64,000 nt of DNA, from positions 355,310-419,309 of the forward strand of contig CAITGV010000001.1 of assembly GCA_903892035.1 (NCBI GenBank), written 5' to 3'. Both the position numbers and the translations under genes were made by a program. This DNA is from an uncultured bacterium. GTDB lineage: Bacteria > Patescibacteriota > Minisyncoccia > Phycocordibacterales > UBA9973. Under the pieces are notes generated by a model. That model searched no databases. It was given only the letters and a program-made list of their open reading frames with translations, and was not told where the DNA came from. Of this stretch, positions 7,823 to 21,785 are shown in pieces. Position 1 is the first letter of the stretch. Each line of letters opens with the position of its first letter.

Positions 7823-7934
7823 TTTAACTGCGTTAATTCCTAAATCTGTAGGTTTTTAAAAAAGACTAATGGACTAATGGGGTCAGGTACCATTATTTTC
7901 AAATTGAATTACTTAACCTGATATAATACCCCCC

Positions 7935-8276: not shown

Positions 8277-8298
8277 AGTCCTGTGATAGAATATATTT

Positions 8299-8664: not shown

Positions 8665-8698
8665 GAACTAATATTTTTTGATTAATTCAGGACTGTTT

Positions 8699-9814: not shown

Positions 9815-9939
9815 TTTTTAAGTATATTATTTAAGACAAATAAATACAAATTTTGCACTTGATGTGTCGAAAATAAAACAGAACATCTTTAATTAAAAAA
9901 AGATTTCGTATTCAAGAATATAATTGTTATACTGCAATT

Positions 9940-10290
9940 ATGGAATATTGGATCAAGAGACTTTCTCATCCACTCCGAGGACTGAAATATGCCTTTACTC
10001 GCGATTTTGCTATTCAGTTTGAAACAATAGTTTTTGGAATTATTGGTTTACCACTCGTGTATTTTTTATTCAAACTTTCAGCCAAAGAATTACTTCTACT
10101 TATATTTTGTTGGTTTTTTATTGTTGTTACTGAAATTCAAAATTCGTCTATTGAAATAGCTCTTACCAAACTTCACCCAGAGAACGATGAGGCGATTGGA
10201 CGAAGCAAAGACCTTGCTTCGGCAGCTGTCGTGTGGGCATTTATATTCGGACTCATTTGTTTATTGTTTGTAATAAGTGGAAAAATTTAA
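9940..10290 (+). CDS. dgkA: diacylglycerol kinase family protein
   Basis: About 116 aa with three TM helices and a DgkA-like pattern (E..NS.IE, DLASAAVVWAF). Confidence 0.6.
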   Translation: MEYWIKRLSHPLRGLKYAFTRDFAIQFETIVFGIIGLPLVYFLFKLSAKELLLLIFCWFFIVVTEIQNSSIEIALTKLHPENDEAIGRSKDLASAAVVWAFIFGLICLLFVISGKI

Positions 10291-10325
10291 AAAAGTAGAA
10301 ATGCAAACAAGAGTTAGTTATCCAC

Positions 10326-10359
10326 AAATATCTTGTGAACATATGTTCACAAGATATTT
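10326..10359. promoter_or_regulatory. LexA box (perfect Cheo box GAACATATGTTC inside a 34-nt perfect palindrome)
   Basis: aaatatcttgtgaacatatgttcacaagatattt, lying 22 nt upstream of the ATG of the RhuM/Doc gene. Confidence 0.65.
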
Positions 10360-10380
10360 GTTTGGTGGTAAAATTAAAGT

Positions 10381-11379
10381 ATGAAAAAGAAAATCGTAGA
10401 AAAAAAGAATAATAAAAATGGTTTGGTAATCTATCAGGCAAAATCTGGAGCAATTGAGCTCCGGGGAGATATTAGTAAGGAGACTATTTGGGCGACACAA
10501 GCTCAAATTATAAAGTTATTTGGAATTGACCAATCTGTTGTGTCTAGACACATTAAAAATGTCTTTAAAGATAAGGAAATTGACCTAAGAAGCAATATGC
10601 AAAAAATGCATATTGCAAATTCAGACAAACCAGTGATTCTGTATTCATTAGATGTTATTCTTGCCGTTGGATATCGCACAAATTCAAAAACTGCTATTGA
10701 TTTTCGAAGATGGGCCACAAAGACTCTTAAAGAATATCTTGTTCAGGGATATGTTGTAAATGAAAAGCGTCTGCTTGAAGCCAAAGAGAATTTCAATAAA
10801 TTACAAAATACGATTGCATTTCTTAATGAAAAATCACACAAGGAATTACTTTCTGGGCAAGGTAAAGAGATTTTGGATTTGCTTGGTTCGTATGCCAAGA
10901 CACTCACATTGCTCGATGAGTATGATAGAGGCGAGCTCAGTTCCGCAAAAGGCACAAAAGGTAAATTTGTTATTTCATATGAACATTGTTTGGAAGTAAT
11001 TATCGAAGTCAGGAATGAACTTGCAAACAAAGGAGAAGCGAGTGAGCTTTTTGGTTGTGAGCGAGATGGTTCGTTTGGGGGAATTATCAAAGGGCTTTAT
11101 CAAACATTTGGTGGAAAGGAGTTATATTCAACTCTTGAAATAAAAGCTGCACATATCTTGTATTTGATTATAAAAGATCATCCTTTTTCTGATGGGAACA
11201 AAAGAATGGGTTCATTTCTCTTTGTGTATTTCTTAGACAAAAACAATGCTCTATATCGTGAACATGGTGAGAAGAAAATTAATGACAATGCGCTCGCTTC
11301 GCTCGCGCTTCTAATTGCCGAAAGCGATCCTAATGAAAAAGATCAAATGATTGCACTTATTACACAATTGTTGAAGTAA
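10381..11379 (+). CDS. RhuM-family / Fic-Doc domain protein (Doc-type motif HPFSDGNKR)
   Basis: The C-terminal motif HPFSDGNKR matches the Doc-subfamily signature Hx[FY]x[DN]GNKR. The N-terminal region resembles RhuM-like proteins. Confidence 0.6.
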   Translation: MKKKIVEKKNNKNGLVIYQAKSGAIELRGDISKETIWATQAQIIKLFGIDQSVVSRHIKNVFKDKEIDLRSNMQKMHIANSDKPVILYSLDVILAVGYRTNSKTAIDFRRWATKTLKEYLVQGYVVNEKRLLEAKENFNKLQNTIAFLNEKSHKELLSGQGKEILDLLGSYAKTLTLLDEYDRGELSSAKGTKGKFVISYEHCLEVIIEVRNELANKGEASELFGCERDGSFGGIIKGLYQTFGGKELYSTLEIKAAHILYLIIKDHPFSDGNKRMGSFLFVYFLDKNNALYREHGEKKINDNALASLALLIAESDPNEKDQMIALITQLLK

Positions 11380-11408
11380 TATTAACATCTAAATTAAAAA
11401 TTATATTT

Positions 11409-11900
11409 ATGAGTACTAAAAAAACATATTTGGCAGGAGGGTGTTTCTGGGGATTGGAAGAATTGATGCGAAGTCAGCCTGGGGTGAAAAATATTATCGC
11501 TGGTTACGCTGGTGGGACGAATGAAAATCCAACTTACGAAAATCATCCAGGTCATGCGGAAGCATTAGAGATTGAATACGATACAGAAGTCACAAGCTTT
11601 TGGAAACTTTTGGATTTCTTTTTTCAGATTCACAATCCAACGACAAAGAATCAACAGGGGAATGATATTGGTGATTCGTATCGAAGCGCGATTTTTTATC
11701 AAAACGATGAAGAATTGCAAAAAGCAAAGGATTTTATAAAAATCGTCAACGATTCAAAGCGTTGGGATGCTCCAGTGGTCACGACACTTGAGCCTTTTAC
11801 AAAGTTTTGGCCAGCAGAAGACTATCATCAAGACTATTTGCAAAGGAATCCTGGTGGCTACACCTGCCACGCAATTTATTTCGATAGTTATTTGGATTAA
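11409..11900 (+). CDS. msrA: peptide-methionine (S)-S-oxide reductase MsrA
   Basis: GCFWG active-site motif near the N-terminus, followed by the typical MsrA core. Confidence 0.85.
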   Translation: MSTKKTYLAGGCFWGLEELMRSQPGVKNIIAGYAGGTNENPTYENHPGHAEALEIEYDTEVTSFWKLLDFFFQIHNPTTKNQQGNDIGDSYRSAIFYQNDEELQKAKDFIKIVNDSKRWDAPVVTTLEPFTKFWPAEDYHQDYLQRNPGGYTCHAIYFDSYLD

Positions 11901-11943
11901 ATATTTCCGAAAATAAAATCACAAATTGTGATAATATCAGCTC

Positions 11944-12288
11944 ATGAGAGTCTGGGATATACATCCGAAACATTTGTGTAGAAAGCATTTGCTCGCCGAA
12001 CATCGTGAGCTTCATGGGCTTTGGAATATTTTGACGAAACATGGCGGAGTGGGTGGATATTCGAGACACCCAGAGACTTTGCGTTGGGTGGGCAAGACTC
12101 GTGCATTATATTTGCGTCACGAAATGCTCGTGCAAGAATTTATACGTCGTGGATACAAGCATCATACTCCACTTGATAAAAAGTTGGCAAAAGGTTCTGC
12201 GAATCAGAGTGTGTTTATAAACACCGCTCGTGAACAAAAAGAAATTTTGAAAAATAAAATGTGCGAATGTTTACTAGATATGCACTAA
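11944..12288 (+). CDS. pyrimidine-dimer DNA glycosylase-like protein (Pyr_excise-like)
   Basis: N-terminal MR.WDIHPK.L....LLAEHRELH pattern resembling the endonuclease V/denV-like family. Assigned by motif resemblance only. Confidence 0.4.
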   Translation: MRVWDIHPKHLCRKHLLAEHRELHGLWNILTKHGGVGGYSRHPETLRWVGKTRALYLRHEMLVQEFIRRGYKHHTPLDKKLAKGSANQSVFINTAREQKEILKNKMCECLLDMH

Positions 12289-12332
12289 GTGTTATCTTTT
12301 TATTAAATTCAAATTAAGTGTAGAATGGGTGA

Positions 12333-12557
12333 ATGACAGAACAAAAAAACAATCCACTACACGGAGTGACACTCGAATTTATTTTGAAATTTCTTGTGGA
12401 ACAATATGGCTTCGAGGAATTGGGGGAGAGGATAAGAATAAATTGTTTCGTGAGTGACCCGAGTATAAATTCTAGTTTGAAATTTCTACGCAAAACTCCT
12501 TGGGCACGCAAAAAGGTGGAGGATTTGTATTTGTATACTAAAAGAAAAATTGGTTAA
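12333..12557 (+). CDS. DUF2132 (VF530-like) small protein
   Basis: LHGVTLE.IL..LVE.YG.EELG pattern typical of DUF2132. Confidence 0.45.
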
Positions 12558-12850
12558 GATTTCTTTAGAAATTCTGTTCGGAGAACAATGCCTTTCATTC
12601 CATTGATATTGCATTCGATCTGTTCTTCATTGTCTGTAAGGTGAATATTTTTTGCTTTCGCACCTCTTTTGATTACCGTCGAGCTACCTTTCAATTTTAA
12701 ATCTTTTATGACTATGACAGTGTCACCATCGGCTAAAATAGTGCCATTGCTATCTCTTGTAATTACTTTTTCGTCTTCTTCATTTTCATTGTTCATAAGT
12801 GGATTATATACTATATAGGGAAATAGGAGTAGGGTGATATAAAAAATCAT
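12554..12850 (-). CDS. PhnA-like protein (C-terminal domain type)
   Basis: DSNGT.LADGDTV.VIKDLK.KGSS..IKRG.K.KNI.L pattern of the PhnA C-terminal domain. Confidence 0.55.
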
Positions 12851-12880
12851 ATCAATTTATAAAGTTTTCCACATATTGTT

Positions 12881-12910
12881 TTGACTGTGAACGACTGTTC
12901 ACGTTATAAT
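12881..12910 (+). promoter_or_regulatory. promoter with embedded LexA box (TTGACT-GTGAACGACTGTTCAC-TATAAT)
   Basis: -35 TTGACT at 12881-12886, GAAC-N4-GTTC at 12889-12900, -10 TATAAT at 12905-12910. Lies 7 nt before the ORF at 12917. Confidence 0.6.
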
Positions 12911-12916
12911 ATTTGA

Positions 12917-14026
12917 ATGACAAATATTTTTTCTAGAAATTTGTTTGGAATTTTTTTAATAATAATATTAACAATTATTTTTCCAACACAGAGTTTCGCT
13001 TCATATCATTTTTCAAATTTTCGTGGACGTCCACCGATTCATGTTTATAAAACTACCGGCAGTATTCCGATGGGTATGACACCAGCGATGATAAAAAATA
13101 TTTATATTTTACCCGCAAGTGGCGGACAGGGAACTATCGCTATCGTTGGTGCATACGATGATACAAGTATTGAAAAAGATTTGGTAGATTTTAGTAAGAC
13201 TTTTAATTTAACATCGTGTACTGTTTCAAATGGTTGTTTTGAAAAACATAAAATGTCTTCAAAAATAAAAGCTGATAGCAATTGGGCTCTTGAGACAACT
13301 CTCGATGTAGAGTGGGCTCACGCGATAGCACCACAGGCAAAAATCTTACTAGTCGAAGCGGTGACGCCATCGGGAGCTAACCTTTTGAATGCAGTAGATT
13401 ATGCATCAAAAAGAAATGATGTATCGGCAATATCGATGAGCTGGGGCGGAAGTGAATTTCCAGAAGAAGTAAATTTGGATCCACATTTTAAAAGTATTTC
13501 TGGTGCGAAGTATTTTGCTTCGTCGGGAGACAATGGCACGGGGGCGTCGTGGCCAGCTTCATCACCAGATGTTATTGCTGTCGGAGGTACGACACTTGTT
13601 TTAAATAGTAATGGAAATGTTTCAAAAGAAATTGCATGGTCTGGATCGGGTGGTGGCATATCTCAATATGAAAAAGCTCCAACGTATCAAAAAGATTATT
13701 CAATTTCAAAAAGTGGCGGCATGCGCGCAATTCCAGATGTGGCGTACGACGCAGATCCGAAATCTGGCTTTCCAATAATTCGTGGTGGGGTGTGGCGTAC
13801 TGTTGGTGGCACTTCAGCCGGTGCCCCACAATGGGCAGCAATTTCCACTCTTGGTTCGGGTGCAAGTAATGATAATTTTTATTCCGACAAAGCTGGTTCA
13901 AATAGTAGTTCTTATTTTCGTGATATTACAAGTGGAGCAAATGGCGATTGTGGCTACGTGTGCAATGCTCGTAAACATTATGATTTTGTGACAGGACTAG
14001 GGACTCCAAAGACTGTAAACTTTTAG
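12917..14026 (+). CDS. secreted S53/S8-like serine peptidase
   Basis: N-terminal signal/TM segment and a GGTSAGAP motif around the catalytic Ser (sedolisin/subtilisin-like). Confidence 0.5.
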   Translation: MTNIFSRNLFGIFLIIILTIIFPTQSFASYHFSNFRGRPPIHVYKTTGSIPMGMTPAMIKNIYILPASGGQGTIAIVGAYDDTSIEKDLVDFSKTFNLTSCTVSNGCFEKHKMSSKIKADSNWALETTLDVEWAHAIAPQAKILLVEAVTPSGANLLNAVDYASKRNDVSAISMSWGGSEFPEEVNLDPHFKSISGAKYFASSGDNGTGASWPASSPDVIAVGGTTLVLNSNGNVSKEIAWSGSGGGISQYEKAPTYQKDYSISKSGGMRAIPDVAYDADPKSGFPIIRGGVWRTVGGTSAGAPQWAAISTLGSGASNDNFYSDKAGSNSSSYFRDITSGANGDCGYVCNARKHYDFVTGLGTPKTVNF

Positions 14027-14219
14027 AGATAGCAAAATTTTGGTAGAAAAGATTTTATTAAAAAATCACGAATGGAAATCTTATTCAGCAAAGCGATTAC
14101 GTGGATCACAAATGGCAGAAAATTTAAAAATCTTGGAAGCAGAATATGATCAAATCTTAAAAAACAAATAAAAAAGGAATGCCACTAGTGCATCCCTTCT
14201 TTCTTTTTTTTGAGGAAGA

Positions 14220-14393
14220 CTATTTTTTTTCGTCTGGCTCAATTTCTTTTTTTTCGAAAAGTTCCTCGTGAGAGGTCTCTTCGTGGTTGATGATGACAAT
14301 TGCATCACCTGCCCTAACAGATACTGTTACAGTTCCATTAGGTTCTTTTGTGAAGTTGATACCCTGAGGGATCATTTTAATTTGTACTGACAT
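14220..14393 (-). CDS. small hypothetical protein (57 aa)
   Basis: An ORF not in the supplied track because it is under 60 aa (MSVQIKMIPQGINFTKEPNGTVTV...). Followed on its strand by an A/T-flanked hairpin at 14170-14215. Confidence 0.25.
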   Translation of the reverse strand: MSVQIKMIPQGINFTKEPNGTVTVSVRAGDAIVIINHEETSHEELFEKKEIEPDEKK

Positions 14394-14481
14394 ATTTTTT
14401 TTATTTAATTGTGAGCTAGTATTATAGCATTTTAAATATATAAAGTCAAGAAAAGCGGTGATGTGCTAAATAAGCTATAAT

Positions 14482-14883
14482 TTGCAAATGAAATTCAGAT
14501 GGAAGAGGGTTGTATTTCGAATACGAGTGAAGGGACCAAAAAAATTGTTGGGGCATTTGAGAGTGAAGGATTACAGGGAAAACAAGGAGGCCGCGCGAGG
14601 GAGGGCCCTCGCGCGGCTTTCGCATTTCAATCAATTTTACAATCTAAAAGTTGGCAAGGTTTTCATTCGTAATCAAAAGTCACGATGGGGAAGTTGCTCA
14701 AGCAAAGGCAATTTGAATTTCAATTATAAAATTGCAATGCTTCCGAGCGAACTTTCGGACTACATCATAGTCCACGAACTTTGCCACCTCGCACAAATGA
14801 ATCACTCAAAAAATTTCTGGTCCCTAGTAGAACAACAAATTCCAAATTACAAAAATCTCCGCGCTGAACTTAAGAAATATTGA
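14482..14883 (+). CDS. DUF45/YgjP-like zinc metallohydrolase, N-terminally short or truncated
   Basis: The C-terminal half of the DUF45 family, including an HExxH motif (HELCHL) and the RWGSCS segment. The usual roughly 100-aa N-terminal part is missing. Confidence 0.5.
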   Translation: MQMKFRWKRVVFRIRVKGPKKLLGHLRVKDYRENKEAARGRALARLSHFNQFYNLKVGKVFIRNQKSRWGSCSSKGNLNFNYKIAMLPSELSDYIIVHELCHLAQMNHSKNFWSLVEQQIPNYKNLRAELKKY

Positions 14884-14887
14884 TCAC

Positions 14888-14917
14888 TTGCATTGTGAAC
14901 AATCGTTCACGTATAAT
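14888..14917 (+). promoter_or_regulatory. promoter with embedded LexA box upstream of dinB
   Basis: -35 TTGCAT, GAACAATCGTTC at 14897-14908, -10 TATAAT at 14912-14917. Confidence 0.65.
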
Positions 14918-14923
14918 GTAGGA

Positions 14924-16180
14924 ATGAATGAAGAGGGAATAGAGAAAAAGCAAAAAGAGAGAATATTTTTTCATATGGATGGTGATGCATTTTTTGTCGG
15001 TGTAGAAATAGCTAAGAATCCAAAATTGAAAGGCTTGCCCGTGGTGACCGGAGAAGAGCGGGGAATTGTCTCTGCACTTTCGTATGAAGCCAAAGCGCTC
15101 GGCATCACACGAGGAATGCCAGTTTTTCGTCTAAAAAAAGAATTTCCAAATGTAATAATTCTTGCCGGAGATTATAAATCATACGCAGAGTATTCGAGTA
15201 GGATGTTTGAAATAGTTCGTCGATATGCGGATGATGTAGAAGAGTACAGCATCGATGAATGTTTTGCCGACCTCACAGGGCTTGATTCGACTTTGTATAT
15301 GAGCTATTTGCAAATTGCACAGAGAATAAAAAAAGAAGTAAATAGTGAACTTGGACTTTCTGTTTCAGTCGGTCTTGCACCGACAAAAGTTCTCGCTAAG
15401 GTTGCTTCGAAATGGGTCAAGCCTGATGGGTTGACGGAAATACGAAAAGAAAATGCCCCAAATTTTTTGTCGAAAACGCCAATAGAAAAAATTTGGGGCC
15501 TTGGTCTGCAAACTTCAACTTTCTTAAAAATAAAAAAAGTTTTTACAGCATTGGATTTTATAAATAAAGATTTGTCTTGGGTGAAAAGAAATTTATCTGC
15601 TCCATATGAGACTATATGGTACGAACTTCGGGGGATTAGGATAATGAGCATTAATCCAGAGCTGAAAATAATTTATTCATCAATACAAAAGACGCGAAGT
15701 TTCCACCCCTCGACAAACGAGAAAAATTTTCTTTTCTCTGAACTCTCAAAACATATTGAAGATGCGTGTAGAAAGGCTCGCCACTACCACCTTGTGCCAA
15801 AAAAAATTTCATTTTTTCTTAAAACAACAAATTTTAAATTCATAACTTTTTCACAAAAAATTTTAATACCAGCAAATTCTCCTGAAGATTATATTTCACT
15901 CGCATATGTGTGGCTCAAAAATTTAGAAAAAACAAAAACACTTTACCGCACGACCGGTGTGACCTTGCACGACTTAGCGTACGATACATTTACGCAAGCA
16001 GATTTATTTGGTCACGGAGAAAAAATTGATAAATTGAAAATAATACACAAACAAATTGATAAATTGGAAAATAAACTTGGTAAAAGATTTGTGCATCTAG
16101 GTTCAAGCCACAAATCACTTTCACGCGAAATGCTTGGCACTGAGCCAGACGAAATAGATCGAAATTTATTATTTTTATAA
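14924..16180 (+). CDS. dinB: DNA polymerase IV (Y-family)
   Basis: Signature FFHMDGDAFFVGVE near the N-terminus, plus SIDECFADLTG. Length and order fit DinB. The start is uncertain: the ORF begins at 14888 with TTG, and the first ATG is at 14924. Confidence 0.8.
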   Translation: MNEEGIEKKQKERIFFHMDGDAFFVGVEIAKNPKLKGLPVVTGEERGIVSALSYEAKALGITRGMPVFRLKKEFPNVIILAGDYKSYAEYSSRMFEIVRRYADDVEEYSIDECFADLTGLDSTLYMSYLQIAQRIKKEVNSELGLSVSVGLAPTKVLAKVASKWVKPDGLTEIRKENAPNFLSKTPIEKIWGLGLQTSTFLKIKKVFTALDFINKDLSWVKRNLSAPYETIWYELRGIRIMSINPELKIIYSSIQKTRSFHPSTNEKNFLFSELSKHIEDACRKARHYHLVPKKISFFLKTTNFKFITFSQKILIPANSPEDYISLAYVWLKNLEKTKTLYRTTGVTLHDLAYDTFTQADLFGHGEKIDKLKIIHKQIDKLENKLGKRFVHLGSSHKSLSREMLGTEPDEIDRNLLFL

Positions 16181-16324
16181 AACAGGTTCTCCGCGAATGA
16201 TTCTTACCAGTATCATAATTATGGCAAGAACCAAAAGAATGTGAATTAGTCCACCAAGGGTAAAAGCTGTCACCATTCCTAAAAGCCAAAGAGTTATTAA
16301 AATGAGTGCAATTGTGAATAACAT
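16175..16324 (-). CDS. Lmo0937-family small membrane protein (49 aa)
   Basis: MLFTIALILITLWLLGMVTAFTLGGLIHILLVLAIIMILVRIIRGEPVL matches the known WLLG...GGLIH.LLV small-protein family. Not in the ORF track because it is under 60 aa. Confidence 0.45.
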   Translation of the reverse strand: MLFTIALILITLWLLGMVTAFTLGGLIHILLVLAIIMILVRIIRGEPVL

Positions 16325-16421
16325 AGATATTTATAATTAAGTTAATAATATTACTTACAATATAAATGCCGTAAGATAACTAAATATATTACAAAATAAA
16401 TAGTTATCCACAGTATTTTTC

Positions 16422-16450
16422 TTGACTGTGAACATGCGTTCACATATAAT
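16422..16450 (+). promoter_or_regulatory. promoter with embedded LexA box upstream of the lexA operon
   Basis: -35 TTGACT at 16422-16427, GAACATGCGTTC at 16430-16441, -10 TATAAT at 16445-16450. Confidence 0.7.
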
Positions 16451-16488
16451 AGAAAGGTAAGAGATTAAAAGTTTAATTATTAAAATAT

Positions 16489-16683
16489 ATGTCAAAAGAT
16501 CAATATATAGTCGCCCTTGAGCGCGAACTCACAAAGCTCAACAAACAAATTGATTTAAAAATAATTCGAGGGGAGAATTATTCATTCGAATCTCGCAAGC
16601 ACAAAATGCTAAAAGAGATTTCAAAGAAATATAAAAAGCCCACTTTCTTTGCACATATATTTCCAATGATGTTAAAATACTAA
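16489..16683 (+). CDS. small hypothetical protein co-transcribed with lexA
   Basis: 64-aa ORF between the LexA-box promoter and lexA. Its stop lies 1 nt from the lexA start. Confidence 0.35.
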   Translation: MSKDQYIVALERELTKLNKQIDLKIIRGENYSFESRKHKMLKEISKKYKKPTFFAHIFPMMLKY

Positions 16684-16684
16684 T

Positions 16685-17251
16685 ATGAAAAACGAATACC
16701 AAAATAAAATTGAAAACTTCCATTCGCGACAGAAAAGAATGCCTACGTACTCCGAAATGATGAAGCTCTTTGGTTTCAAATCTAAAAATGCAGTTTACAG
16801 GGTAGTTGAGAAGCTTATGGATGCAGGGCTAGTGGCAAAAGACCACCTTGGTCGCCTGGTGCCAACAAAAAGTTTTGGAGAGATTCCTATGCTCGGTTCT
16901 GTGACTGCGGGATTCCCAGCAACAGTCGAAGAAGAGCGACATGAGACGATGAATATCGACGATTATCTTGTTGAAAAAAAGGATTCTACATATATGCTTG
17001 AAGTTGATGGTGACTCTATGATCGATGCTCATATTGAAGATGGAGATATGGTCCTAGTCGAACGCACAGACAAAGCCAAAGATGGGCAGATAGTCATAGC
17101 ATATATCGATGGGGAATTTACAATGAAATATTTCCGTAAAAATGCTGACGACGTCTGGCTTGAACCTGCAAATAAAAAATATAAAAACATTTACCCAAAG
17201 CATGACCTTCAGATCACTGCGGTGGTAAAGGCTGTCATACGCAAATACTAG
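16685..17251 (+). CDS. lexA: LexA repressor (S24 peptidase)
   Basis: N-terminal wHTH, an Ala-Gly cleavage site (VTAGFP), and the Ser and Lys catalytic residues in VDGDSM...K context. Confidence 0.85.
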   Translation: MKNEYQNKIENFHSRQKRMPTYSEMMKLFGFKSKNAVYRVVEKLMDAGLVAKDHLGRLVPTKSFGEIPMLGSVTAGFPATVEEERHETMNIDDYLVEKKDSTYMLEVDGDSMIDAHIEDGDMVLVERTDKAKDGQIVIAYIDGEFTMKYFRKNADDVWLEPANKKYKNIYPKHDLQITAVVKAVIRKY

Positions 17252-17335: not shown

Positions 17336-17668
17336 ATGGCTAATGAATTAATGTTTAGAAACACCGGGCTTGATTTGCGTCACGTCCATTTTCTTTTTAT
17401 GATTGCCTTTGAGCAAGAAATGTCTCAGAAATGGCAATTTAAAAGAAGGGAAATCAAAAAAGTGAATGCATTTAATTTAAATGTGAGTTCATTTTGTTTT
17501 AATTTTATAACTAATTGTGACATTCAAGTTGAAGGAACTATTACAGTTCTTGAGGATGATGCAATGTTGCGCTACACAGTGCGTGAAAGTACTGTAAGTC
17601 TAGTTATAAATTTAGAACTTTCTGAAATTTTGTCTGAACTGGAAAATCGAGTTCGTGAAATATTTTAG
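17336..17668 (+). CDS. hypothetical protein
   Basis: 110-aa ORF preceded by a TTGACA-17-TATGGT promoter-like site at 17258-17286. Confidence 0.25.
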   Translation: MANELMFRNTGLDLRHVHFLFMIAFEQEMSQKWQFKRREIKKVNAFNLNVSSFCFNFITNCDIQVEGTITVLEDDAMLRYTVRESTVSLVINLELSEILSELENRVREIF

Positions 17669-17758: not shown

Positions 17759-20700
17759 ATGCTATTATCAGAAAATATGGAAGAGAATTCAGACAATAAA
17801 TCACAAATAGCAAAACGCGAAGAAAAGATTTTGGCATATTGGCAAGAGAACAATACTTTCAGAAAAAGTTTGGAAAAAGAGGCGCCAAAAGGGAATTACG
17901 TTTTTTATGATGGACCACCTTTTGCGACAGGTTTACCACACTACGGGCACATACTCGGAAGTACTGCTAAGGACGTGATTGGTCGCTATCAGACGATGCA
18001 GGGTTTTAAGGTGCCAAGAAAATGGGGTTGGGATTGTCACGGCCTGCCGATCGAGCACATTATAGAAAAAGAATTAAAAATTTCTGGACATAAAGAAATT
18101 GAAGAATACGGAATTGAAAAATTTACAGAATATGCGCGAAGTAAAGTTTTGACCTATGTGCATGATTGGAAGAGGACAGTAGACCGCATCGGGCGCTGGG
18201 TGGATTTTGATAATGGTTACAAGACAATGGACAACACTTTCATCGAAAGTGTATGGTGGGCACTTGGAGAGCTTAATAAAAAAAGTTTGGTATATGAAGG
18301 TGTGCGAGTACTTGCTTACTGTCCACGTTGCGAGACACCAATAGCAAATTCGGAAATTGCAATGGACAATAGTTATAAAGACATTACAGATATTTCTGTA
18401 TTTGTGAAGTTTCCTTTGATTGAAGATCCAAATACATATTTGGTAGCCTGGACTACAACGCCTTGGTCACTTCCTGGTGATACTGCTCTTGCTGTAAACA
18501 AAGAAATAAAATATATAAAAATTTTACACGAAGGTGCGTACTATGTTATTGCAAAAGAGCGAGCACCTTTTGTTCCGGTACTCAAGGATATTGCTCTAGT
18601 AGAAGGGGAAAATTATGAAGAAGTAAATGTCGAAGATTTGATTGGTAAATCATACATACCACCTTTTAAGTATTATGAAAATACTGAAATGCCAAATAAA
18701 GAAAATATTTGGAAGATTTGGCATGCGGACTTTGTCACGATAGATGCAGGTACGGGCATTGCGCACGAAGCTCCAGCTTTTGGAGAAGAAGATATGGATC
18801 TAGCAAAAAAGAATAATATTCCATTTATTAATCATGTAACTGTGGATGGAAAATTTGCATCAGAAGTTCTTGATTTTGCTGGTGAAAAAATAAAACCAAA
18901 AGAAGATCACCAAAGTGGTGATGTACTCATAATCAAATATTTGGCAAAAGCTGGAACTCTTTTTGCAAAAGAAAAAATAATTCACTCATACCCGCACTGT
19001 TATCGTTGTGAGACACCACTTTTCTACTATGCTCTTCCATCGTGGTTTGTAAATGTGCAGAAAGTAAAAAATAAAATGCTTGAAAATGCCAAAGAAATGA
19101 ATTGGATTCCAGGGCATTTAAAAGAAGGGCGTTTTCAAAATATTATGGAAAATGCTCCAGATTGGAACATTTCCCGCAATCGCTACTGGGCGAGTCCTTT
19201 GCCTATTTGGAAATCAGAATCAGGTAAGCTTTTATTTGTATCGAGTGTAGAAGATTTGAAAAATAAAACAAAAAAATCTGGAAATAAATATTTTATAATG
19301 CGCCACGGAGAATCAACTCATAATACAGAAGGAATTTGTAGTTCTGTGGTAGATTACCCGCATCATCTTACAGAAGAAGGGAAGAAAATCGTTGGTGAAA
19401 ATGCAGAATTATTAAAAACAAAAAATATTACAACAATATATTGTTCACCTTACGTTCGTACAAAAGAAACCGCTGAAATAGTAGCAAATACAATTGGTTT
19501 TGATAAAACAAAAATAATTTACGATGAAAGAATTGAAGAATTTAAATTTGGGGATTTCAATATGAAGCCCATGAAAGAATATTTGAAATGGAGAGAAAAA
19601 GTGGGTAATACAGTCAATCTCTGTCCTCCAAATGGTGAAAGTGTTGTTGATTCACGTCATCGTTTTTCTAAATTTTATTATGATATTGATGAAAAACTTA
19701 CAAATCAAAATGTTCTTGTTATTTCTCACGGTATAGCACTTGAGGTTATGGAAGGAATTGATAATGGTTATAGTGATGAAATTATGTGGAAAAATTGGAA
19801 AATGAACAGCGTTGCGCCGGGGCATTTTAAAGAATTTAATTTCACACCATTGCCACATAATAAAAATTTTGAACTTGATTTACATAGACCATATATAGAC
19901 AACATTGTTTTGACCGATGGTGCAGAAGAGTATCATCGTGTGCCTGAAGTTATGGACTGTTGGTTTGAGTCAGGCTCAATGCCTTTTGCGCAAGACCACT
20001 ATCCCTTCGACTTCGCTCAGGGTAAACCCTTTGAAGGTGTTGATTGGAAAAAATTAAATTTCCCAGCAGGTTTTGTTGCAGAATACATAGCGCAGACACG
20101 TACATGGTTTTACTATTCACATACACTTTCGACTATGCTTTTTGATCACGCACCATTTAAAAATGTCGTAACGACAGGAACACTGCTCGCTTCCGATGGA
20201 CAGAAAATGTCGAAGTCGAAAGGAAATTATCCTGACCCATGGATTATCTTTAATAAATTTGGAGTTGATCCGCTACGTTTTTATTTGATGTCATCACCTT
20301 TGATGAAAGGCGAGGATACAAATTTTATGGAAAAAAGTGTTCAAGATATTTCAAGTAAAATTATTTCTCGCATGGACAACGTTGTGGCGTTTTATGAATT
20401 GTATAGAGATAATGAATTAGAGAATAAATTGGTAAATTCAAAGAATGTCCTCGATATTTGGATTCTTGCTCGACTCGAGCAGTGTGTGAGTGAAGTGACG
20501 GCTGGAATGGAGGCGTACGATATGGCTCTAGCTTCAAGACCTTTTGAATTATTTATCGAAGATCTTTCGACTTGGTATTTGCGTCGTTCACGTGAACGCA
20601 TAAAAGACGGTGATGCGGGAGCAAAAGCTACACTATATTTTGTATTGAAAACAGTGGCGACAATTATCGCACCGCTGACGCCATTTCTCGCTGAAGATAT

Positions 20701-21223
20701 TTGGCAAAAATTGAAATTGGATAATGACCCAGAAAGTGTTCATCTAACAACTTGGCCACTAGGAAGGACCGTCCTTGCTAGTGATGTGGTTAAAGAAATG
20801 CAAAATACTCGAGATTTAGTTTCGCTTGGACTTCAGGCAAGACAAAAAACTGGAATTCCAGTTCGACAACCTCTACAGAAGTTGAAAGTTAAAAGTATAA
20901 AGTTGAACGAAGATTACATCGAATTAATTAAAGAGGAATTAAACGTAAAAGAAGTTGTAGAAGATATAAAAATAGAAAATACTGTTGAACTCGATACTGA
21001 AATTACTCCAGAACTAAAACGAGAAGGGGACTATCGTGAGCTTGTGCGAGCTGTGCAAGAGCTACGAAAAAATTCTGGACTCACTCCGAGTGACATAATA
21101 GTTCTCACGATGCCTCTAAATACAAAAGAAATTGTCGCAGGTTTTGAAGACGATATGAAAAAAACAGTACTCGCAACTGAAATTCTATTTGAAGGTGAAG
21201 AAATGAAAGTTGTGGTAAAATAG
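17759..21223 (+). CDS. ileS: isoleucyl-tRNA synthetase (type 2) with inserted histidine-phosphatase domain
   Basis: PPFATGLPHYGH (HIGH region), WTTTPWSLP and KMSKSKGN motifs. An RHG histidine-phosphatase-like segment (MRHGESTHN ... VISHGIA) is inserted between WNISRNRYW and DLHRPYID. Confidence 0.85.
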   Translation: MLLSENMEENSDNKSQIAKREEKILAYWQENNTFRKSLEKEAPKGNYVFYDGPPFATGLPHYGHILGSTAKDVIGRYQTMQGFKVPRKWGWDCHGLPIEHIIEKELKISGHKEIEEYGIEKFTEYARSKVLTYVHDWKRTVDRIGRWVDFDNGYKTMDNTFIESVWWALGELNKKSLVYEGVRVLAYCPRCETPIANSEIAMDNSYKDITDISVFVKFPLIEDPNTYLVAWTTTPWSLPGDTALAVNKEIKYIKILHEGAYYVIAKERAPFVPVLKDIALVEGENYEEVNVEDLIGKSYIPPFKYYENTEMPNKENIWKIWHADFVTIDAGTGIAHEAPAFGEEDMDLAKKNNIPFINHVTVDGKFASEVLDFAGEKIKPKEDHQSGDVLIIKYLAKAGTLFAKEKIIHSYPHCYRCETPLFYYALPSWFVNVQKVKNKMLENAKEMNWIPGHLKEGRFQNIMENAPDWNISRNRYWASPLPIWKSESGKLLFVSSVEDLKNKTKKSGNKYFIMRHGESTHNTEGICSSVVDYPHHLTEEGKKIVGENAELLKTKNITTIYCSPYVRTKETAEIVANTIGFDKTKIIYDERIEEFKFGDFNMKPMKEYLKWREKVGNTVNLCPPNGESVVDSRHRFSKFYYDIDEKLTNQNVLVISHGIALEVMEGIDNGYSDEIMWKNWKMNSVAPGHFKEFNFTPLPHNKNFELDLHRPYIDNIVLTDGAEEYHRVPEVMDCWFESGSMPFAQDHYPFDFAQGKPFEGVDWKKLNFPAGFVAEYIAQTRTWFYYSHTLSTMLFDHAPFKNVVTTGTLLASDGQKMSKSKGNYPDPWIIFNKFGVDPLRFYLMSSPLMKGEDTNFMEKSVQDISSKIISRMDNVVAFYELYRDNELENKLVNSKNVLDIWILARLEQCVSEVTAGMEAYDMALASRPFELFIEDLSTWYLRRSRERIKDGDAGAKATLYFVLKTVATIIAPLTPFLAEDIWQKLKLDNDPESVHLTTWPLGRTVLASDVVKEMQNTRDLVSLGLQARQKTGIPVRQPLQKLKVKSIKLNEDYIELIKEELNVKEVVEDIKIENTVELDTEITPELKREGDYRELVRAVQELRKNSGLTPSDIIVLTMPLNTKEIVAGFEDDMKKTVLATEILFEGEEMKVVVK

Positions 21224-21227
21224 ATGG

Positions 21228-21785
21228 ATGAAAAAAGTCTATTTAATTCATGGGTATGGAGGTGAGCCGAATGGCGGATGGCGACCTTGGTTAATGGGTA
21301 AATTAGCAAAAAAAGATATTTGGGCATGTGCACTAGCAATGCCAATGTCAGATGAACCCAAAAAAGATGAATGGATTGCAGAAATGAAACGTGTAATTGG
21401 TAAGCCAAATGAAGATATTTTTTTAGTTGGACATTCGCTTGGTGTTTCTGCAATATTAAATTATTTACAAAGTTTAGATAGTGAAGTTGTTGGCGGTGCT
21501 ATTTTGGTTTCAGGTCCAATTCATGTATTAGGTGATGATAAATATAGAGCAATAGATCATTTCATGAATAAGGATTTTAATTTTGAATATATTAAAAATG
21601 TATGTAAAAATTTTTGTGTTATACACGGAGATAATGATGTCACTGTTCCATTTAGCCATGCCGTAGAATTGTCTAATAATTTAAACTGTCAATTAATTAC
21701 CATTAAAAATGGGGGTCATTTAAATGGTTCTTCTGGTTGGTATGAACTTCCAGAAGCTTATGAAACTATTTTAAAAATGCTGTAA
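21228..21785 (+). CDS. alpha/beta hydrolase (YdeN/RBBP9-like serine hydrolase)
   Basis: GHSLG nucleophile elbow, with a downstream Asp and His. About 185 aa. Confidence 0.55.
   Translation: MKKVYLIHGYGGEPNGGWRPWLMGKLAKKDIWACALAMPMSDEPKKDEWIAEMKRVIGKPNEDIFLVGHSLGVSAILNYLQSLDSEVVGGAILVSGPIHVLGDDKYRAIDHFMNKDFNFEYIKNVCKNFCVIHGDNDVTVPFSHAVELSNNLNCQLITIKNGGHLNGSSGWYELPEAYETILKML

What the first reader, a model, noticed from the sequence alone, without database searches (positions are those of the whole stretch)
17759..21223. Isoleucyl-tRNA synthetase carrying an inserted histidine-phosphatase domain
The IleRS core motifs (PPFATGLPHYGH, WTTTPWSLP, KMSKSKGN) are intact. Between the conserved WNISRNRYWASPLPIW and DLHRPYID...PEVMDCWFESGSMP blocks there is an inserted segment of about 190 aa (nt about 19270-19860). 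It begins ...KYFIMRHGESTHN and later contains VLVISHGIA, which are the RHG catalytic-His motif and the second His motif of the histidine phosphatase (phosphoglycerate-mutase-like) superfamily. Ordinary IleRS has only about 50-70 aa at this position. An enzymatically plausible phosphatase domain fused inside an essential aaRS is a highly unusual architecture. It could add a second catalytic activity, for example nucleotide or aminoacyl-adenylate hydrolysis.
Basis: partly seen in the sequence, partly recalled or inferred. Interest (0 to 1): 0.8.

Follow-up and report, generated by a model that had tools for sequence, protein, structure and literature searches.

The report
Isoleucyl-tRNA synthetase with built-in phosphatase
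This essential protein-synthesis enzyme from an uncultivated ultra-small bacterium really does carry a complete, apparently active phosphatase inside it, and in related bacteria the same phosphatase is a separate gene placed directly in front of the synthetase gene, so the two enzymes appear to be long-standing partners whose shared job is unknown.

Summary
Confirmed. ORF 17759-21223 (+), 1154 aa, is a type-2 isoleucyl-tRNA synthetase (passes the ileS equivalog cutoff). A complete 196-aa branch-1 histidine phosphatase (Pfam His_Phos_1, E 3e-27; aa 505-700, nt 19271-19858) is nested in its CP3 subdomain, where yeast-type IleRS has about 7 residues. It is not an assembly artefact: the exact protein lies on six contigs, and all 120 closest relatives (Patescibacteria/Paceibacteria) share the architecture. 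The catalytic residues R515, H516, R567 and H657 are invariant and E594 is nearly so, although the insert is only about 40% identical between relatives (cores 70-74%). New here: the insert's closest free-standing relatives are about 195-aa phosphatases encoded immediately upstream of an insert-less ileS in 30 of 39 species-level genomes, usually with overlapping or near-overlapping stop and start. Histidine phosphatases are also nested in two other IleRS loops, and independently at the homologous CP3 site of ValRS in Gracilibacteria/Peregrinibacteria (1-4 copies). So this is a recurrent synthetase-phosphatase partnership in candidate-phyla bacteria. I found no paper describing it. The substrate is unknown. 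It is not a phosphoglycerate mutase, CobC, PspA or SixA equivalog. Aminoacyl-adenylate hydrolysis is chemically unlikely. A nucleotide-type phosphomonoester is my low-confidence lead.

The parts
17759..21223 (+). ileS ORF, 1154 aa: type-2 (eukaryote-like) isoleucyl-tRNA synthetase with a nested histidine phosphatase
   Evidence: ORF. TIGR00392 813.8 bits, above the 621.4 cutoff. Pfam architecture. Best structural matches are type-2 IleRS 8c8w/8c8v, yeast 8wnd and C. albicans 6ldk.
17939..17950 (+). HIGH signature (HYGH, aa 61-64) of the class I catalytic site
   Evidence: Position. H61, Y62, G63 and H64 are invariant in 120 homologs.
18449..18793 (+). CP1 editing-domain signatures: Thr-rich WTTTPWSLP (aa 231-239) and GTGIAHEAPAFGEED (aa 331-345)
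   Evidence: Positions. W231, T232-234, P235, W236, G331, T332, H336, D345 are invariant. Weak Pfam tRNA-synt_1_2 hit at 312-362. That these motifs mark the editing site is from established knowledge of class Ia synthetases.
19154..19210 (+). CP2-CP3 linker APDWNISRNRYWASPLPIW (aa 466-484). The equivalent yeast segment lines the tRNA CCA-end / reveromycin pocket
   Evidence: Position. Aligned to ARDWNISRNRYWGTPIPLW of 6ldk. Role of the ScIleRS 453-465 linker from PMC7955072.
19211..19270 (+). N-terminal half of CP3 (aa 485-504: beta-hairpin plus helix SVEDLKNK)
   Evidence: Aligned to CaIleRS 481-497. CaIleRS CP3 is residues 473-534 (PMC7191050). Secondary structure.
19271..19858 (+). Nested branch-1 histidine phosphatase domain (aa 505-700), PhoE/PspA/CobC-like
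   Evidence: Pfam PF00300 E 3.3e-27. AF2 pLDDT 91-97 in the full-length model; alone, pLDDT 89.7 and pTM 0.88. Foldseek: PspA 4ij6 TM 0.81, PhoE 1ebb TM 0.81, CobC 6nru TM 0.78. Aligns end to end with free-standing ~195-aa phosphatases.
19301..19309 (+). RHG motif: R515, nucleophile H516, G517
   Evidence: Invariant in 120/120 close homologs. R and H are 100% conserved in all 191 IleRS-embedded and 104 short or standalone copies examined.
19457..19459 (+). R567, second phosphate-binding Arg (SPYVRTKETA)
   Evidence: Invariant. Aligns with the corresponding Arg of PhoE 1ebb.
19538..19540 (+). E594, acid/base Glu (DERIEEF)
   Evidence: E in 119/120 close homologs; E or D in essentially all IleRS-linked copies. 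Aligns with the 'RLREI' Glu of PhoE.
19727..19729 (+). H657, second catalytic His (VISHG)
   Evidence: Invariant.
19859..19942 (+). Conserved exit linker (…PLPHNKNFE) and C-terminal half of CP3 (LDLHRPYID…, to aa 728)
   Evidence: F695, P699, H700, N701, L706 are at least 90% conserved; D707, H709, R710, P711, D714 are invariant. Aligned to CaIleRS 505-525.
20078..20113 (+). Variant of the class-I GxDQ ribose-binding motif: AEYIAQTRTWFY instead of AEG[ILV]DQTRGWFY
   Evidence: Shared by 118/120 close homologs. Not correlated with the phosphatase.
20204..20218 (+). KMSKS signature (aa 816-820)
   Evidence: Position. K816, K819, S820 invariant.
20453..21202 (+). Anticodon-binding domain (Pfam aa 899-1041) and C-terminal DUF5915 tRNA-binding region (aa 1039-1148)
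21228..21785 (+). Downstream PF06821 Ser_hydrolase gene (185 aa), 4 nt after the ileS stop. A possible second partner, but the link is weak
   Evidence: Pfam E 1.7e-24. The same family is embedded in IleRS P0278. Not conserved next to ileS in L001-L003 or the GTDB loci.

Best explanation
This is a genuine bifunctional protein. A type-2 IleRS carries a complete ~196-aa branch-1 histidine phosphatase (PhoE/PspA/CobC-like) nested in its peripheral CP3 subdomain. The domain belongs to a family of free-standing ~195-aa phosphatases that in sister Patescibacteria are encoded immediately upstream of ileS and are usually translationally coupled to it. In this lineage the partner sits inside the synthetase. 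Shown: the fold, the full catalytic set (R515, H516, R567, E594, H657) under strong purifying selection, the operon and insertion relationship, and recurrence at other loops and in ValRS. Inferred: the domain is an active phosphomonoesterase. H516 attacks a terminal phosphoryl group to form phospho-His, R515/R567/H657 bind the phosphate, and E594 protonates the leaving group. The domain is anchored about 35 residues after the CP2-CP3 linker that lines the CCA/ATP pocket. It would therefore act on a phosphomonoester connected with aminoacylation while IleRS keeps charging tRNA-Ile. My leading substrate guess (about 30%, pure inference) is a nucleotide-type monoester. That could be a 2'/3'-phosphorylated or pyrophosphorylated tRNA 3' end, or an adenine nucleotide that would otherwise block or be released from the synthetic site. 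The non-conserved cap region suggests the rest of the substrate is positioned by the synthetase rather than by the phosphatase.
For: Identity and integrity: Pfam and NCBIfam hits. AF2 pLDDT 91-97 for the insert in context and 89.7 alone. Foldseek TM 0.78-0.81 to PspA, PhoE and CobC. Selection: R515, H516, G517, S563, R567 and H657 are invariant and D589, R591, E594 are at least 90% conserved in 120 homologs. The insert is only 40% identical against 70-74% for the cores, and its length varies by only 11 residues. R-H-R-H is 100% conserved in 191 embedded and 104 short or standalone copies. Not an artefact: six contigs carry the exact protein, and 120/120 top homologs have PF00133 plus PF00300. 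Partnership: the best non-IleRS hits among 1.84 billion representatives are ~190-200-aa standalone proteins that align end to end. These lie directly upstream of an insert-less gene that passes the ileS cutoff in L008-10, L011, L013 and L014, and beside one in L012. The same holds in 30 of 39 GTDB species loci, with a stop-to-start gap of -4 to +21 nt in 21 of the 30. Embedded and adjacent forms were never seen together in one locus. Recurrence: two other IleRS loops carry His_Phos (P0214, P0220, P0278). 70/120 ValRS relatives carry 1-3 or more copies, mainly at the homologous CP3 site, and these are apparently independent acquisitions. Position: the insert lies inside CP3, whose upstream linker lines the tRNA-CCA pocket. 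Nucleotide flavour (weak): CYTH, NUDIX and HD_3 genes are wedged between hisPhos and ileS in some genomes, and NUDIX/dUTPase/kinase genes lie upstream in L001. The top NCBIfam phosphatase hit is the nucleotide-like alpha-ribazole phosphatase. Precedent that tRNA 3' ends are pyrophosphorylated in a tRNA-specific way: PMC11559606.
Against: No activity or substrate has been tested. I could not obtain model coordinates or PAE, so whether H516 faces the synthetic site is unknown. CP3 is a variable peripheral subdomain that may simply tolerate insertions. The same synthetases in related lineages also carry in-frame GNAT, Ser_hydrolase, IS200-like transposase, DUF559 and HU domains, which argues for a generally insertion-tolerant scaffold. 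The embedded domain is acidic (median pI 5.6), which is not what a stand-alone RNA-binding module would look like. Conserved gene order in small genomes does not prove mechanistic coupling. One standalone relative (P0160) and five distant GTDB members are not next to ileS. Why IleRS and ValRS specifically, rather than all synthetases, is unexplained. No histidine phosphatase is known to me that acts on RNA 3' ends.
Confidence: 0.62

Rival explanations
1. Hitch-hiking housekeeping phosphatase. The domain is an ordinary metabolic phosphatase whose substrate has nothing to do with aminoacylation. Its gene happened to lie upstream of ileS in a conserved housekeeping cluster. It was later captured into permissive CP loops of an essential, steadily expressed protein, which guarantees expression in a minimal genome.
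For: CP3 is variable and peripheral. Class Ia synthetases of these lineages also host unrelated in-frame domains: GNAT, Ser_hydrolase, Y1 transposase, DUF559, HU. The argS-ileS-recO-aaRS gene order is broadly conserved, so adjacency may be historical. The fold is closest to small-molecule phosphatases that have a cap. The cap region is not conserved, which could equally mean broad specificity.
Against: Overlapping or near-overlapping stop and start in 21/30 species loci. Adjacency is kept across two very divergent IleRS types. There are repeated independent insertions: three IleRS loops, and independently ValRS at the homologous CP3 site, in up to 3-4 copies. Embedded and adjacent forms have complementary distributions. 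This is more association than chance capture of one of many housekeeping genes would predict.
Confidence: 0.25
2. Cis-acting protein phosphatase. The domain keeps IleRS (or ValRS) free of inhibitory Ser/Thr/His phosphorylation, for example by HipA/HipT-like toxin kinases that inactivate synthetases at the ATP-binding loop.
For: Toxin kinases that phosphorylate and inactivate GluRS and TrpRS are established (PMC6581861, PMC8262856). The superfamily includes protein phosphatases such as SixA, and there is a weak SixA hit at aa 511-586. All three IleRS insertion sites flank the second half of the Rossmann fold, which carries KMSKS. A non-conserved cap fits a substrate presented by the host protein.
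Against: SixA scores 37 bits against a 74.5 cutoff. No kinase known to me targets IleRS or ValRS, and none was seen in the loci examined. No PADLOC hit.
Confidence: 0.07
3. The domain hydrolyses (non-cognate) aminoacyl-adenylate as an extra pre-transfer editing site, or hydrolyses pyrophosphate to pull activation forward.
For: Proximity in sequence to the linker lining the active-site pocket. Association with the two editing synthetases IleRS and ValRS.
Against: By established enzymology of branch-1 histidine phosphatases (not tested here), the Arg/Arg/His/Asn pocket binds a terminal PO3 group and transfers it to His. An acyl-adenylate phosphate is doubly substituted and should not fit. The CP1 editing motifs are intact, so no replacement is needed. 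I know of no branch-1 member that is a pyrophosphatase. PPi is produced by every synthetase, not only IleRS and ValRS.
Confidence: 0.04
4. Cofactor-dependent phosphoglycerate mutase or another already-named enzyme (CobC, PspA) that has been fused to IleRS.
For: The best PDB sequence hit is the short S. pombe PGM (1fzt, E 1e-8). The standalone partner's best NCBIfam hit is archaeal dPGM (92 bits).
Against: All equivalog cutoffs are missed by a wide margin: dPGM_arch 67 against 225, CobC 71 against 163, PspA 59 against 350, GpmB 55 against 261. In the 1fzt alignment the mutase substrate-binding residues (NERYYG Arg/Tyr, the RRSYD Arg pair, HGN Asn) are replaced by EEFKFG, GNTVN and HGI.
Confidence: 0.03
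5. Catalytically silent module: a structural spacer or a phospho-ligand sensor that allosterically tunes IleRS.
For: Some ValRS copies have lost H657 (9/80) or E594 (26/80), so pseudo-phosphatase copies do exist in the wider phenomenon.
Against: In IleRS-linked copies every catalytic residue is retained in about 300 sequences despite ~40% overall identity. Pure ligand binding would not need the nucleophile, the acid/base and both Arg residues all together.
Confidence: 0.04
6. Assembly chimera or frameshift joining two genes.
For: None beyond the slightly lower GC of the insert (0.29-0.32 against 0.36-0.42 in the flanks).
Against: A single uninterrupted ORF. The exact protein is on six contigs up to 488 kb. 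120/120 nearest homologs from NCBI, JGI, ENA and Logan assemblies have the same nested order, with an insert length of 221-232 aa between the flanking motifs. The IleRS C-terminal half continues in frame after the insert.
Confidence: 0.01

Closest known systems
Type-2 (eukaryote-like, mupirocin-insensitive type) isoleucyl-tRNA synthetases, e.g. Priestia megaterium IleRS2 (8c8u-w), S. cerevisiae (8wnd) and C. albicans (6ldk) IleRS
   Same: Overall architecture: Rossmann fold with HIGH and KMSKS, CP core, CP1 editing domain, CP2, CP3, anticodon-binding domain and the DUF5915-type C-terminal region. About 30% identity, Foldseek E 1e-65 to 1e-73. Passes TIGR00392.
   Different: About 196 extra residues forming a whole enzyme inside CP3, where those structures have a ~7-residue loop. 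The GxDQ motif reads EYIAQ. Far below the MupA/MupB exception cutoffs.
Compact branch-1 histidine phosphatases: Geobacillus PhoE/YhfR (1ebb, 1h2e), Hydrogenobacter PspA (4ij5/6), CobC alpha-ribazole phosphatase (6nru, 6e4b)
   Same: Fold (TM 0.78-0.81, rmsd 2.3-2.8 A), size (~200 aa), the RHG...R...E...H catalytic set, and presence of a cap region.
   Different: Nested in another enzyme. 22-26% identity. Below every equivalog cutoff. Cap residues are not conserved within the family. Substrate unknown.
Free-standing 'MKLNNKYFxLRHG...GELRKLN' phosphatases of Ca. Staskawiczbacteria and other Patescibacteria (annotated only as 'histidine phosphatase family protein')
   Same: Closest standalone relatives of the insert (32-40% identity, end-to-end). 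Share the family-specific invariant Asn before strand 1. Genetically tied to ileS.
   Different: A separate polypeptide encoded upstream of an insert-less ileS. Basic (median pI 9.25) whereas embedded copies are acidic.
Bifunctional RNase H / CobC-like acid phosphatase (M. tuberculosis Rv2228c type; NCBIfam NF005567)
   Same: A nucleic-acid enzyme covalently joined to a CobC/PhoE-like histidine phosphatase whose physiological logic is unclear. The insert hits this model at E 9e-16.
   Different: There the phosphatase is a C-terminal fusion, not nested. 58 bits against a 326 cutoff. The partner enzyme is different.
Other synthetases with extra catalytic modules: the CP1 editing domain of class Ia enzymes, and NCBIfam NF040702 'isoleucine--tRNA ligase, N-acetyltransferase domain-containing'
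   Same: The principle of a second catalytic domain nested in or appended to the connective-peptide region of IleRS.
   Different: Different fold and chemistry (phosphoryl transfer rather than ester hydrolysis or acetylation). NF040702 scores 322 bits against a 1999 cutoff.

Membership tests
Isoleucyl-tRNA synthetase (class Ia; NCBIfam TIGR00392 equivalog) | Whole-protein score above the curated equivalog cutoff | tested here: met
   813.8 bits against a 621.4 cutoff. The next synthetase model, valS, scores 378.7 against 612.1.
Isoleucyl-tRNA synthetase (class Ia) | HIGH and KMSKS signature motifs of the Rossmann-fold active site | tested here: met
   HYGH aa 61-64 and KMSKS aa 816-820, invariant in the family.
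Isoleucyl-tRNA synthetase (class Ia) | CP1 editing domain with the Thr-rich motif and the GTG..H..P..G..D motif | tested here: met
   WTTTPWSLP aa 231-239 and GTGIAHEAPAFGEED aa 331-345, with key residues invariant.
Isoleucyl-tRNA synthetase (class Ia) | GxDQ ribose/amino-group binding motif (EG[ILV]DQTRGWF in type-2 IleRS) | tested here: not met
   Reads AEYIAQTRTWFY: Gly is replaced by Tyr and Asp by Ala, while Gln is kept. Shared by 118/120 close homologs. Whether this changes catalysis is unknown.
Isoleucyl-tRNA synthetase (class Ia) | Aminoacylation of tRNA-Ile, and being the only IleRS of the genome | not testable with these tools
   Only one IleRS-type ORF is in the 64-kb window. The rest of the genome is not available.
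Type-2 IleRS | Closest sequence and structure relatives are eukaryote-like or IleRS2 enzymes; C-terminal DUF5915-type domain instead of the bacterial Zn-binding domain | tested here: met
   Foldseek top hits are 8c8w, 8c8v, 8wnd and 6ldk, ahead of type-1 8c9e and 1qu2. PF19302 at aa 1039-1148.
Histidine phosphatase superfamily, branch 1 (Pfam PF00300) | Score above the Pfam gathering threshold | tested here: met
   95.9 bits against 21.7, E 3.3e-27, aa 512-664.
Histidine phosphatase superfamily, branch 1 | Catalytic core: RHG (Arg plus nucleophilic His), second Arg, acid/base Glu, second His | tested here: met
   R515-H516-G517, R567, E594 and H657 all present. Invariant or at least 99% conserved in 120 homologs, and 100% for R/H/R/H in about 300 IleRS-linked copies.
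Histidine phosphatase superfamily, branch 1 | PGAM-like alpha/beta/alpha fold | tested here: met
   AF2 pLDDT 89.7, pTM 0.88. TM 0.78-0.81 to PspA, PhoE and CobC; 296 PDB chains at E <= 1e-3.
Histidine phosphatase superfamily, branch 1 | Phosphatase (or mutase) activity | not testable with these tools
   Requires an enzyme assay.
Cofactor-dependent phosphoglycerate mutase (dPGM) | Equivalog score, and the substrate-binding residues (Arg/Tyr of NERHYG, the Arg-Arg pair, Asn of HGN) | tested here: not met
   dPGM_arch 67 bits against 225; GpmB 55 against 261; PRK01295 36 against 316. In the 1fzt alignment those residues are replaced.
Alpha-ribazole phosphatase CobC (TIGR03162 / PRK15004) | Equivalog score | tested here: not met
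   71.1 bits against 162.9, and 56.1 against 250.
PspA-type phosphoserine phosphatase (NF045917) | Equivalog score | tested here: not met
   58.9 bits against 350, although it is the best structural match.
Phosphohistidine phosphatase SixA (TIGR00249) | Equivalog score; small cap-less domain | tested here: not met
   37.1 bits against 74.5, N-terminal half only. The model has a cap region, aa ~596-630.
Mupirocin-resistance IleRS MupA/MupB; GNAT-containing IleRS (NF040702) | Exception-model cutoffs | tested here: not met
   686 and 664 bits against 1900; 322 against 1999.
Known anti-phage defence proteins (PADLOC-DB) | Any model hit for the insert, its standalone partner, or the neighbouring genes | tested here: not met
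   No hits at E <= 0.01.

The most novel reading that the evidence does not exclude
Class Ia synthetases of candidate-phyla bacteria have a previously unrecognised accessory activity. A dedicated histidine phosphatase, supplied in trans from a translationally coupled gene or nested in CP3, removes a phosphate (or pyrophosphate) from the tRNA 3' end or from a nucleotide occupying the synthetic site. This would couple repair or unblocking directly to aminoacylation, for example as a built-in countermeasure to tRNA-3'-pyrophosphorylating toxins. That would be a new step in aminoacyl-tRNA synthesis and a new substrate class for the histidine phosphatase superfamily.
Probability: 0.25. Interest if true: 0.9.

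Novelty: new variant of a known kind. Interest (0 to 1): 0.7.

Why it matters
Aminoacyl-tRNA synthetases are among the best-studied enzymes. Extra catalytic domains in them, such as editing domains, have each revealed a new layer of translation quality control. Here an intact phosphatase is genetically locked to IleRS across a large part of the Patescibacteria, and convergently to ValRS in Gracilibacteria/Peregrinibacteria. It occurs either as a translationally coupled upstream gene or as a domain nested in the catalytic body. I found no paper that mentions it. If the phosphatase acts on something that passes through the synthetic site, it defines a new accessory reaction of aminoacylation in a radiation that makes up a large share of bacterial diversity and cannot be cultured. 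If it does not, the family is still an unusually clear natural series showing how an operon partner becomes an internal domain by insertion into connective-peptide loops. It also shows that metabolic reconstructions based on gene calls can miss enzymes hidden inside housekeeping proteins. The protein is small enough to express, and H516A gives a clean control, so the question can be tested directly.

Tried and rejected
(1) Mis-assembly or frameshift: rejected.
(2) dPGM, CobC, PspA or SixA identity: rejected on curated cutoffs and on the mutase substrate residues.
(3) Ser_hydrolase as a conserved second partner: the gene follows ileS only in this window's lineage. It is absent from L001-L003 and all GTDB loci, and is only 21% identical to the copy embedded in P0278. 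Kept as a side note only.
(4) The small ORF upstream of ileS (17336-17668) as a remnant of the standalone phosphatase or a conserved partner: there is no similarity between the upstream ORFs of the window, L001 and L002, and none to the phosphatase HMM.
(5) A link between the degenerate GxDQ motif and the phosphatase: rejected. Insert-bearing and partner-adjacent IleRS occur with both canonical and variant motifs.
(6) A standalone phosphatase next to an insert-less valS: not seen in the single locus examined.
(7) Context of P0160 and of generic standalone hits (P0123): no synthetase nearby, uninformative.
(8) Scanning genomes with the 28-sequence alignment A2 failed for lack of a conserved stretch. 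It was redone with 8 closer sequences.
(9) PADLOC defence models: no hits.
(10) Literature: seven searches combining IleRS, ValRS or aaRS with histidine phosphatase, PGM, PF00300 or CPR names found no description.
(11) Orientation of the phosphatase pocket relative to the Ile-AMP site could not be measured, because model coordinates and PAE are not exposed by the tools.
(12) The word-index search with the insert alone found only 20 hits because the insert diverges quickly. The exhaustive representative search was needed.

Full report
**1.

The window contains one uninterrupted ORF at 17759-21223 (+) encoding 1154 aa. Pfam reports the class I synthetase catalytic domain split into two stretches (E 2e-122). 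It also reports His_Phos_1 at aa 512-664 (E 3.3e-27, 95.9 bits against a 21.7 gathering score), Anticodon_1 and DUF5915. The NCBIfam ileS equivalog TIGR00392 scores 813.8 bits against a cutoff of 621.4, well ahead of valS and leuS. The extra segment spans aa ~505-700 (nt 19271-19858).

**2. Exactly where the insert sits**

Aligned to C. albicans IleRS (6ldk), the sequence matches up to '...VGSIQELRE' (residue 497) and resumes at 'TDIHRESID' (residue 505). About 7 residues there are replaced by about 200 here. CaIleRS residues 473-534 are the CP3 subdomain, a small peripheral module whose topology differs between IleRS types (PMC7191050). The insert is therefore nested inside CP3. The segment just upstream, APDWNISRNRYWASP, corresponds to the yeast CP2-CP3 linker 453-ARDWNVSRNRYWG-465. 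That linker lines the pocket occupied by reveromycin A, which is the binding site of the tRNA CCA end (PMC7955072). The host enzyme is a type-2 (eukaryote-like) IleRS. Foldseek ranks P. megaterium IleRS2, yeast and Candida IleRS (E 1e-65 to 1e-73, ~30% identity) above type-1 enzymes.

**3. The insert is a complete histidine phosphatase that looks active**

- In the full-length AlphaFold2 model (mean pLDDT 83.1) the insert is the most confident region, with pLDDT 91-97.
- Modelled alone it gives pLDDT 89.7 and pTM 0.88.
- It superposes on compact capped small-molecule phosphatases: PspA 4ij6 (TM 0.81, rmsd 2.3 A), PhoE 1ebb (TM 0.81) and CobC 6nru (TM 0.78).
- The PhoE alignment pairs R515/H516 with the RHG motif, R567 with the second Arg, E594 with the acid/base Glu, and H657 with the second His.
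- In 120 homologs, R515, H516, G517, S563, R567 and H657 are invariant, and D589, R591 and E594 are at least 90% conserved.
- Yet the insert is only 40% identical on average, against 70-74% for the synthetase cores. Its length between the flanking motifs varies only from 221 to 232 aa.
- Across every IleRS-linked copy I collected (120 + 71 embedded, 68 short, 36 standalone), the R-H-R-H tetrad is 100% conserved and E594 is E or D.

This is the signature of selection on catalysis, not on a spacer. The domain is not one of the named enzymes. All equivalog cutoffs are missed by a wide margin: dPGM_arch 67 against 225, CobC 71 against 163, PspA 59 against 350, SixA 37 against 74.5. The mutase-specific substrate residues are also absent in the alignment to S. 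pombe PGM.

**4. Not an artefact, and not rare**

The exact protein occurs on six contigs up to 488 kb. All 120 best hits (59-66% identity, 1131-1219 aa) come from NCBI, JGI, ENA and Logan assemblies. They are named Patescibacteria, Paceibacterota, Pacebacteria, Nomurabacteria or Parcubacteria, and all carry PF00133 plus PF00300. Public annotation calls them only 'class I tRNA ligase family protein' or 'isoleucyl-tRNA synthetase'.

**5. Where the domain came from: an operon partner of ileS**

I ran an exhaustive search of 1.84 billion representative proteins with the insert alone. It found 6250 relatives at E <= 1e-3, 532 at E <= 1e-10 and 15 at E <= 1e-30. Of the best 150, 84 are IleRS or IleRS fragments with the insert. 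The rest are fragments plus a coherent family of free-standing ~190-200-aa proteins ('MKLNNKYFxLRHG...GELRKLN') that align with the insert from end to end.

Their genomic context is striking:
- In L008-L010, L011, L013 and L014 the order is (argS)-phosphatase-ileS-(x)-recO, with an insert-less ileS of 955-984 aa.
- In L012 the two genes are neighbours in convergent orientation.
- A scan of one genome per GTDB species returned 39 loci, mostly Ca. Staskawiczbacteria and other Patescibacteria.
- In 30 of these an insert-less IleRS-type ORF of 930-1019 aa follows on the same strand. Four of the other nine are cut by the contig end.
- In 21 of the 30 the distance from the phosphatase stop to the ileS ATG is -4 to +21 nt.
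- Six sampled downstream genes pass the ileS cutoff, at 670-921 bits.
- The pairing is kept across two very different IleRS types, 'FYDGPPFATG...HYGH' and 'FLDGPITANN...HHAWG/EMHKS'.
- No locus has both an adjacent and an embedded copy, and the window has no second copy.

The insert-bearing loci keep the same downstream synteny of ileS-(MBL)-recO-large DUF11/CLIPPER protein-class II synthetase-M16 peptidase. The simplest reading is that a long-standing two-gene partnership was converted, in this lineage, into a single polypeptide by insertion into CP3.

**6. The phenomenon is wider than this gene**

Another IleRS lineage carries His_Phos domains in two further loops. One is after WFESGSMPYA, before the GxDQ motif. 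The other is after the KMSKS/stem-contact fold (P0214 and five near-identical proteins of 1419 aa). P0220 has three occupied sites, and P0278 has a PF06821 Ser_hydrolase at the second site plus His_Phos at the third.

P0145 is a ValRS with four copies. Among its 120 closest relatives (named Gracilibacteria or Peregrinibacteria), 70 carry one to three or more His_Phos domains. Most sit 27-30 residues after the WxISRQ motif, the position homologous to the CP3 site used here. The nearest neighbours of the ValRS domains are generic standalone phosphatases rather than the IleRS-linked family. This suggests an independent acquisition. Some ValRS copies have lost H657 or E594.

The same synthetases occasionally host other in-frame domains: GNAT, an IS200-like transposase, DUF559 and HU. 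So CP regions in these lineages are clearly permissive. Only the histidine phosphatase recurs at this scale.

**7. How it most likely works**

Shown: fold, catalytic residues, selection, genetic coupling, and position in CP3.

Inferred from the established mechanism of the superfamily: H516 attacks a terminal phosphoryl group to give phospho-His. R515, R567, H657 and usually N522 hold the phosphate. E594 protonates the leaving group, and water then releases phosphate. Because that pocket binds a terminal PO3 group, monoesters (or terminal anhydride or phosphoramidate groups) are the expected substrates.

The cap region (aa ~596-625), which confers specificity in characterised members, is not conserved in this family. 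That fits either broad specificity or a substrate that is positioned by the synthetase.

Weak contextual hints point to nucleotides. CYTH, NUDIX and HD_3 genes are wedged between the phosphatase and ileS in some genomes, and NUDIX/dUTPase/nucleotide-kinase genes lie upstream in L001. The best phosphatase HMM is the nucleotide-like alpha-ribazole phosphatase.

My working model, at about 30% for the substrate level, is a tethered phosphomonoesterase that clears a nucleotide-type monoester at the synthetic site. The most interesting version is a 2'/3'-phosphorylated or pyrophosphorylated tRNA 3' end. Toxins that pyrophosphorylate tRNA CCA ends, some of them tRNA-specific, are documented (10.1101/2021.04.30.441581; PMC11559606).

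The main rival, at about 25%, is that the phosphatase is an unrelated housekeeping enzyme riding on an insertion-tolerant essential gene. A cis-acting protein phosphatase that counters HipA/HipT-type kinases (PMC6581861) is a further possibility. However, the domain resembles capped small-molecule enzymes rather than SixA.

I could not obtain model coordinates, so the direction in which the phosphatase pocket faces is unknown.

**8. Novelty and verdict**

Seven full-text searches found no description of an IleRS or ValRS with a histidine phosphatase, nor of the gene pair. The sequences themselves are public and carry precomputed Pfam hits. The architecture is therefore 'in the databases' but, as far as I can tell, has not been noticed or studied.

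I classify it as a new variant of a known kind: a synthetase with an additional catalytic module. What makes it unusual is the convergent recurrence and the operon-to-insertion history. Interest is 0.7. The finding is real, clean and directly testable, and an aaRS specialist would be surprised by it. Its function remains open, and a mundane hitch-hiking explanation is not excluded.

Noticed in passing
window 20078-20113 (aa 774-785): The class-I 'GxDQ' ribose/amino-group binding motif reads AEYIAQTRTWFY instead of AEG[ILV]DQTRGWFY (Gly to Tyr, Asp to Ala). 118/120 close homologs share this. Other insert-bearing IleRS keep EGxDQ or EAxDQ, so it is a clade-specific active-site change not tied to the phosphatase.
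   Followed up: partly
window 21228-21785: A PF06821 Ser_hydrolase gene (185 aa) starts 4 nt after the ileS stop. The same family is embedded inside IleRS P0278 (aa 562-734) together with a His_Phos domain. The two are only 21% identical, and the adjacency is not conserved in other loci. From memory and not verified here: a human member of this family, RBBP9, hydrolyses the valyl ester prodrug valacyclovir, which would make an aminoacyl-ester hydrolase plausible.
   Followed up: partly
L008, L014, L019-L024, L029-L032, L035, L037, L041, L043 (IleRS genes downstream of the standalone phosphatase): 16 of 32 partner-adjacent IleRS have very unusual signatures. The HIGH region reads 'GVHHAWG', KMSKS is replaced by 'EMHKS', and GxDQ by 'SFPGQ'. 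They still pass the ileS equivalog cutoff at 670-686 bits.
   Followed up: partly
P0249 (IleRS, 1066 aa, JGI); P0322, P0357, P0331 (ValRS relatives): Other whole domains are found in frame inside class Ia synthetases of these lineages. P0249 has an IS200-like Y1 transposase hit in the editing-domain region plus a C-terminal GNAT. ValRS relatives carry PF04480 (DUF559 endonuclease-like) and PF00216 (HU). This suggests a general route for in-frame domain capture.
   Followed up: no
P0145, P0301, P0305, P0326, P0332 and about 65 other ValRS from Gracilibacteria/Peregrinibacteria: ValRS carries 1-4 histidine phosphatase domains (proteins up to 1626 aa), mainly at the CP3-equivalent site and sometimes as tandem copies. 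Some copies have lost the second His (9/80) or the acid/base Glu (26/80).
   Followed up: partly
window 6068-17251: Where relatives have argS upstream of ileS, this window has what looks like an accessory island: GmrSD restriction enzyme (6068-7822), RhuM/Fic protein (10381-11379), DinB-type polymerase (14888-16180) and a LexA-like S24 peptidase (16685-17251).
   Followed up: no
L017, L019, L021, L022, L024, L025, L035 (between hisPhos and ileS): The short interval between the standalone phosphatase and ileS is a hotspot for inserted genes: CYTH, Fic, a PLP-dependent enzyme (twice), RHH plus YafQ/RelE toxin plus an HD_3 (YfbR-like) protein, NUDIX, and one unknown.
   Followed up: partly
window 19271-19858 versus the standalone family (A2): Embedded phosphatase domains are acidic (median pI 5.6 over 120 inserts; 6.5 here). 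The free-standing ileS-adjacent partners are basic (median pI 9.25). This is consistent with, but does not prove, an electrostatic interaction of the free form with the acidic IleRS (core pI 5.4) or with tRNA.
   Followed up: no
window 17336-17668: A 110-aa ORF between the LexA-like gene and ileS has no family hit and no similarity to the small ORFs at the same position in L001 and L002. It may not be a real gene.
   Followed up: yes
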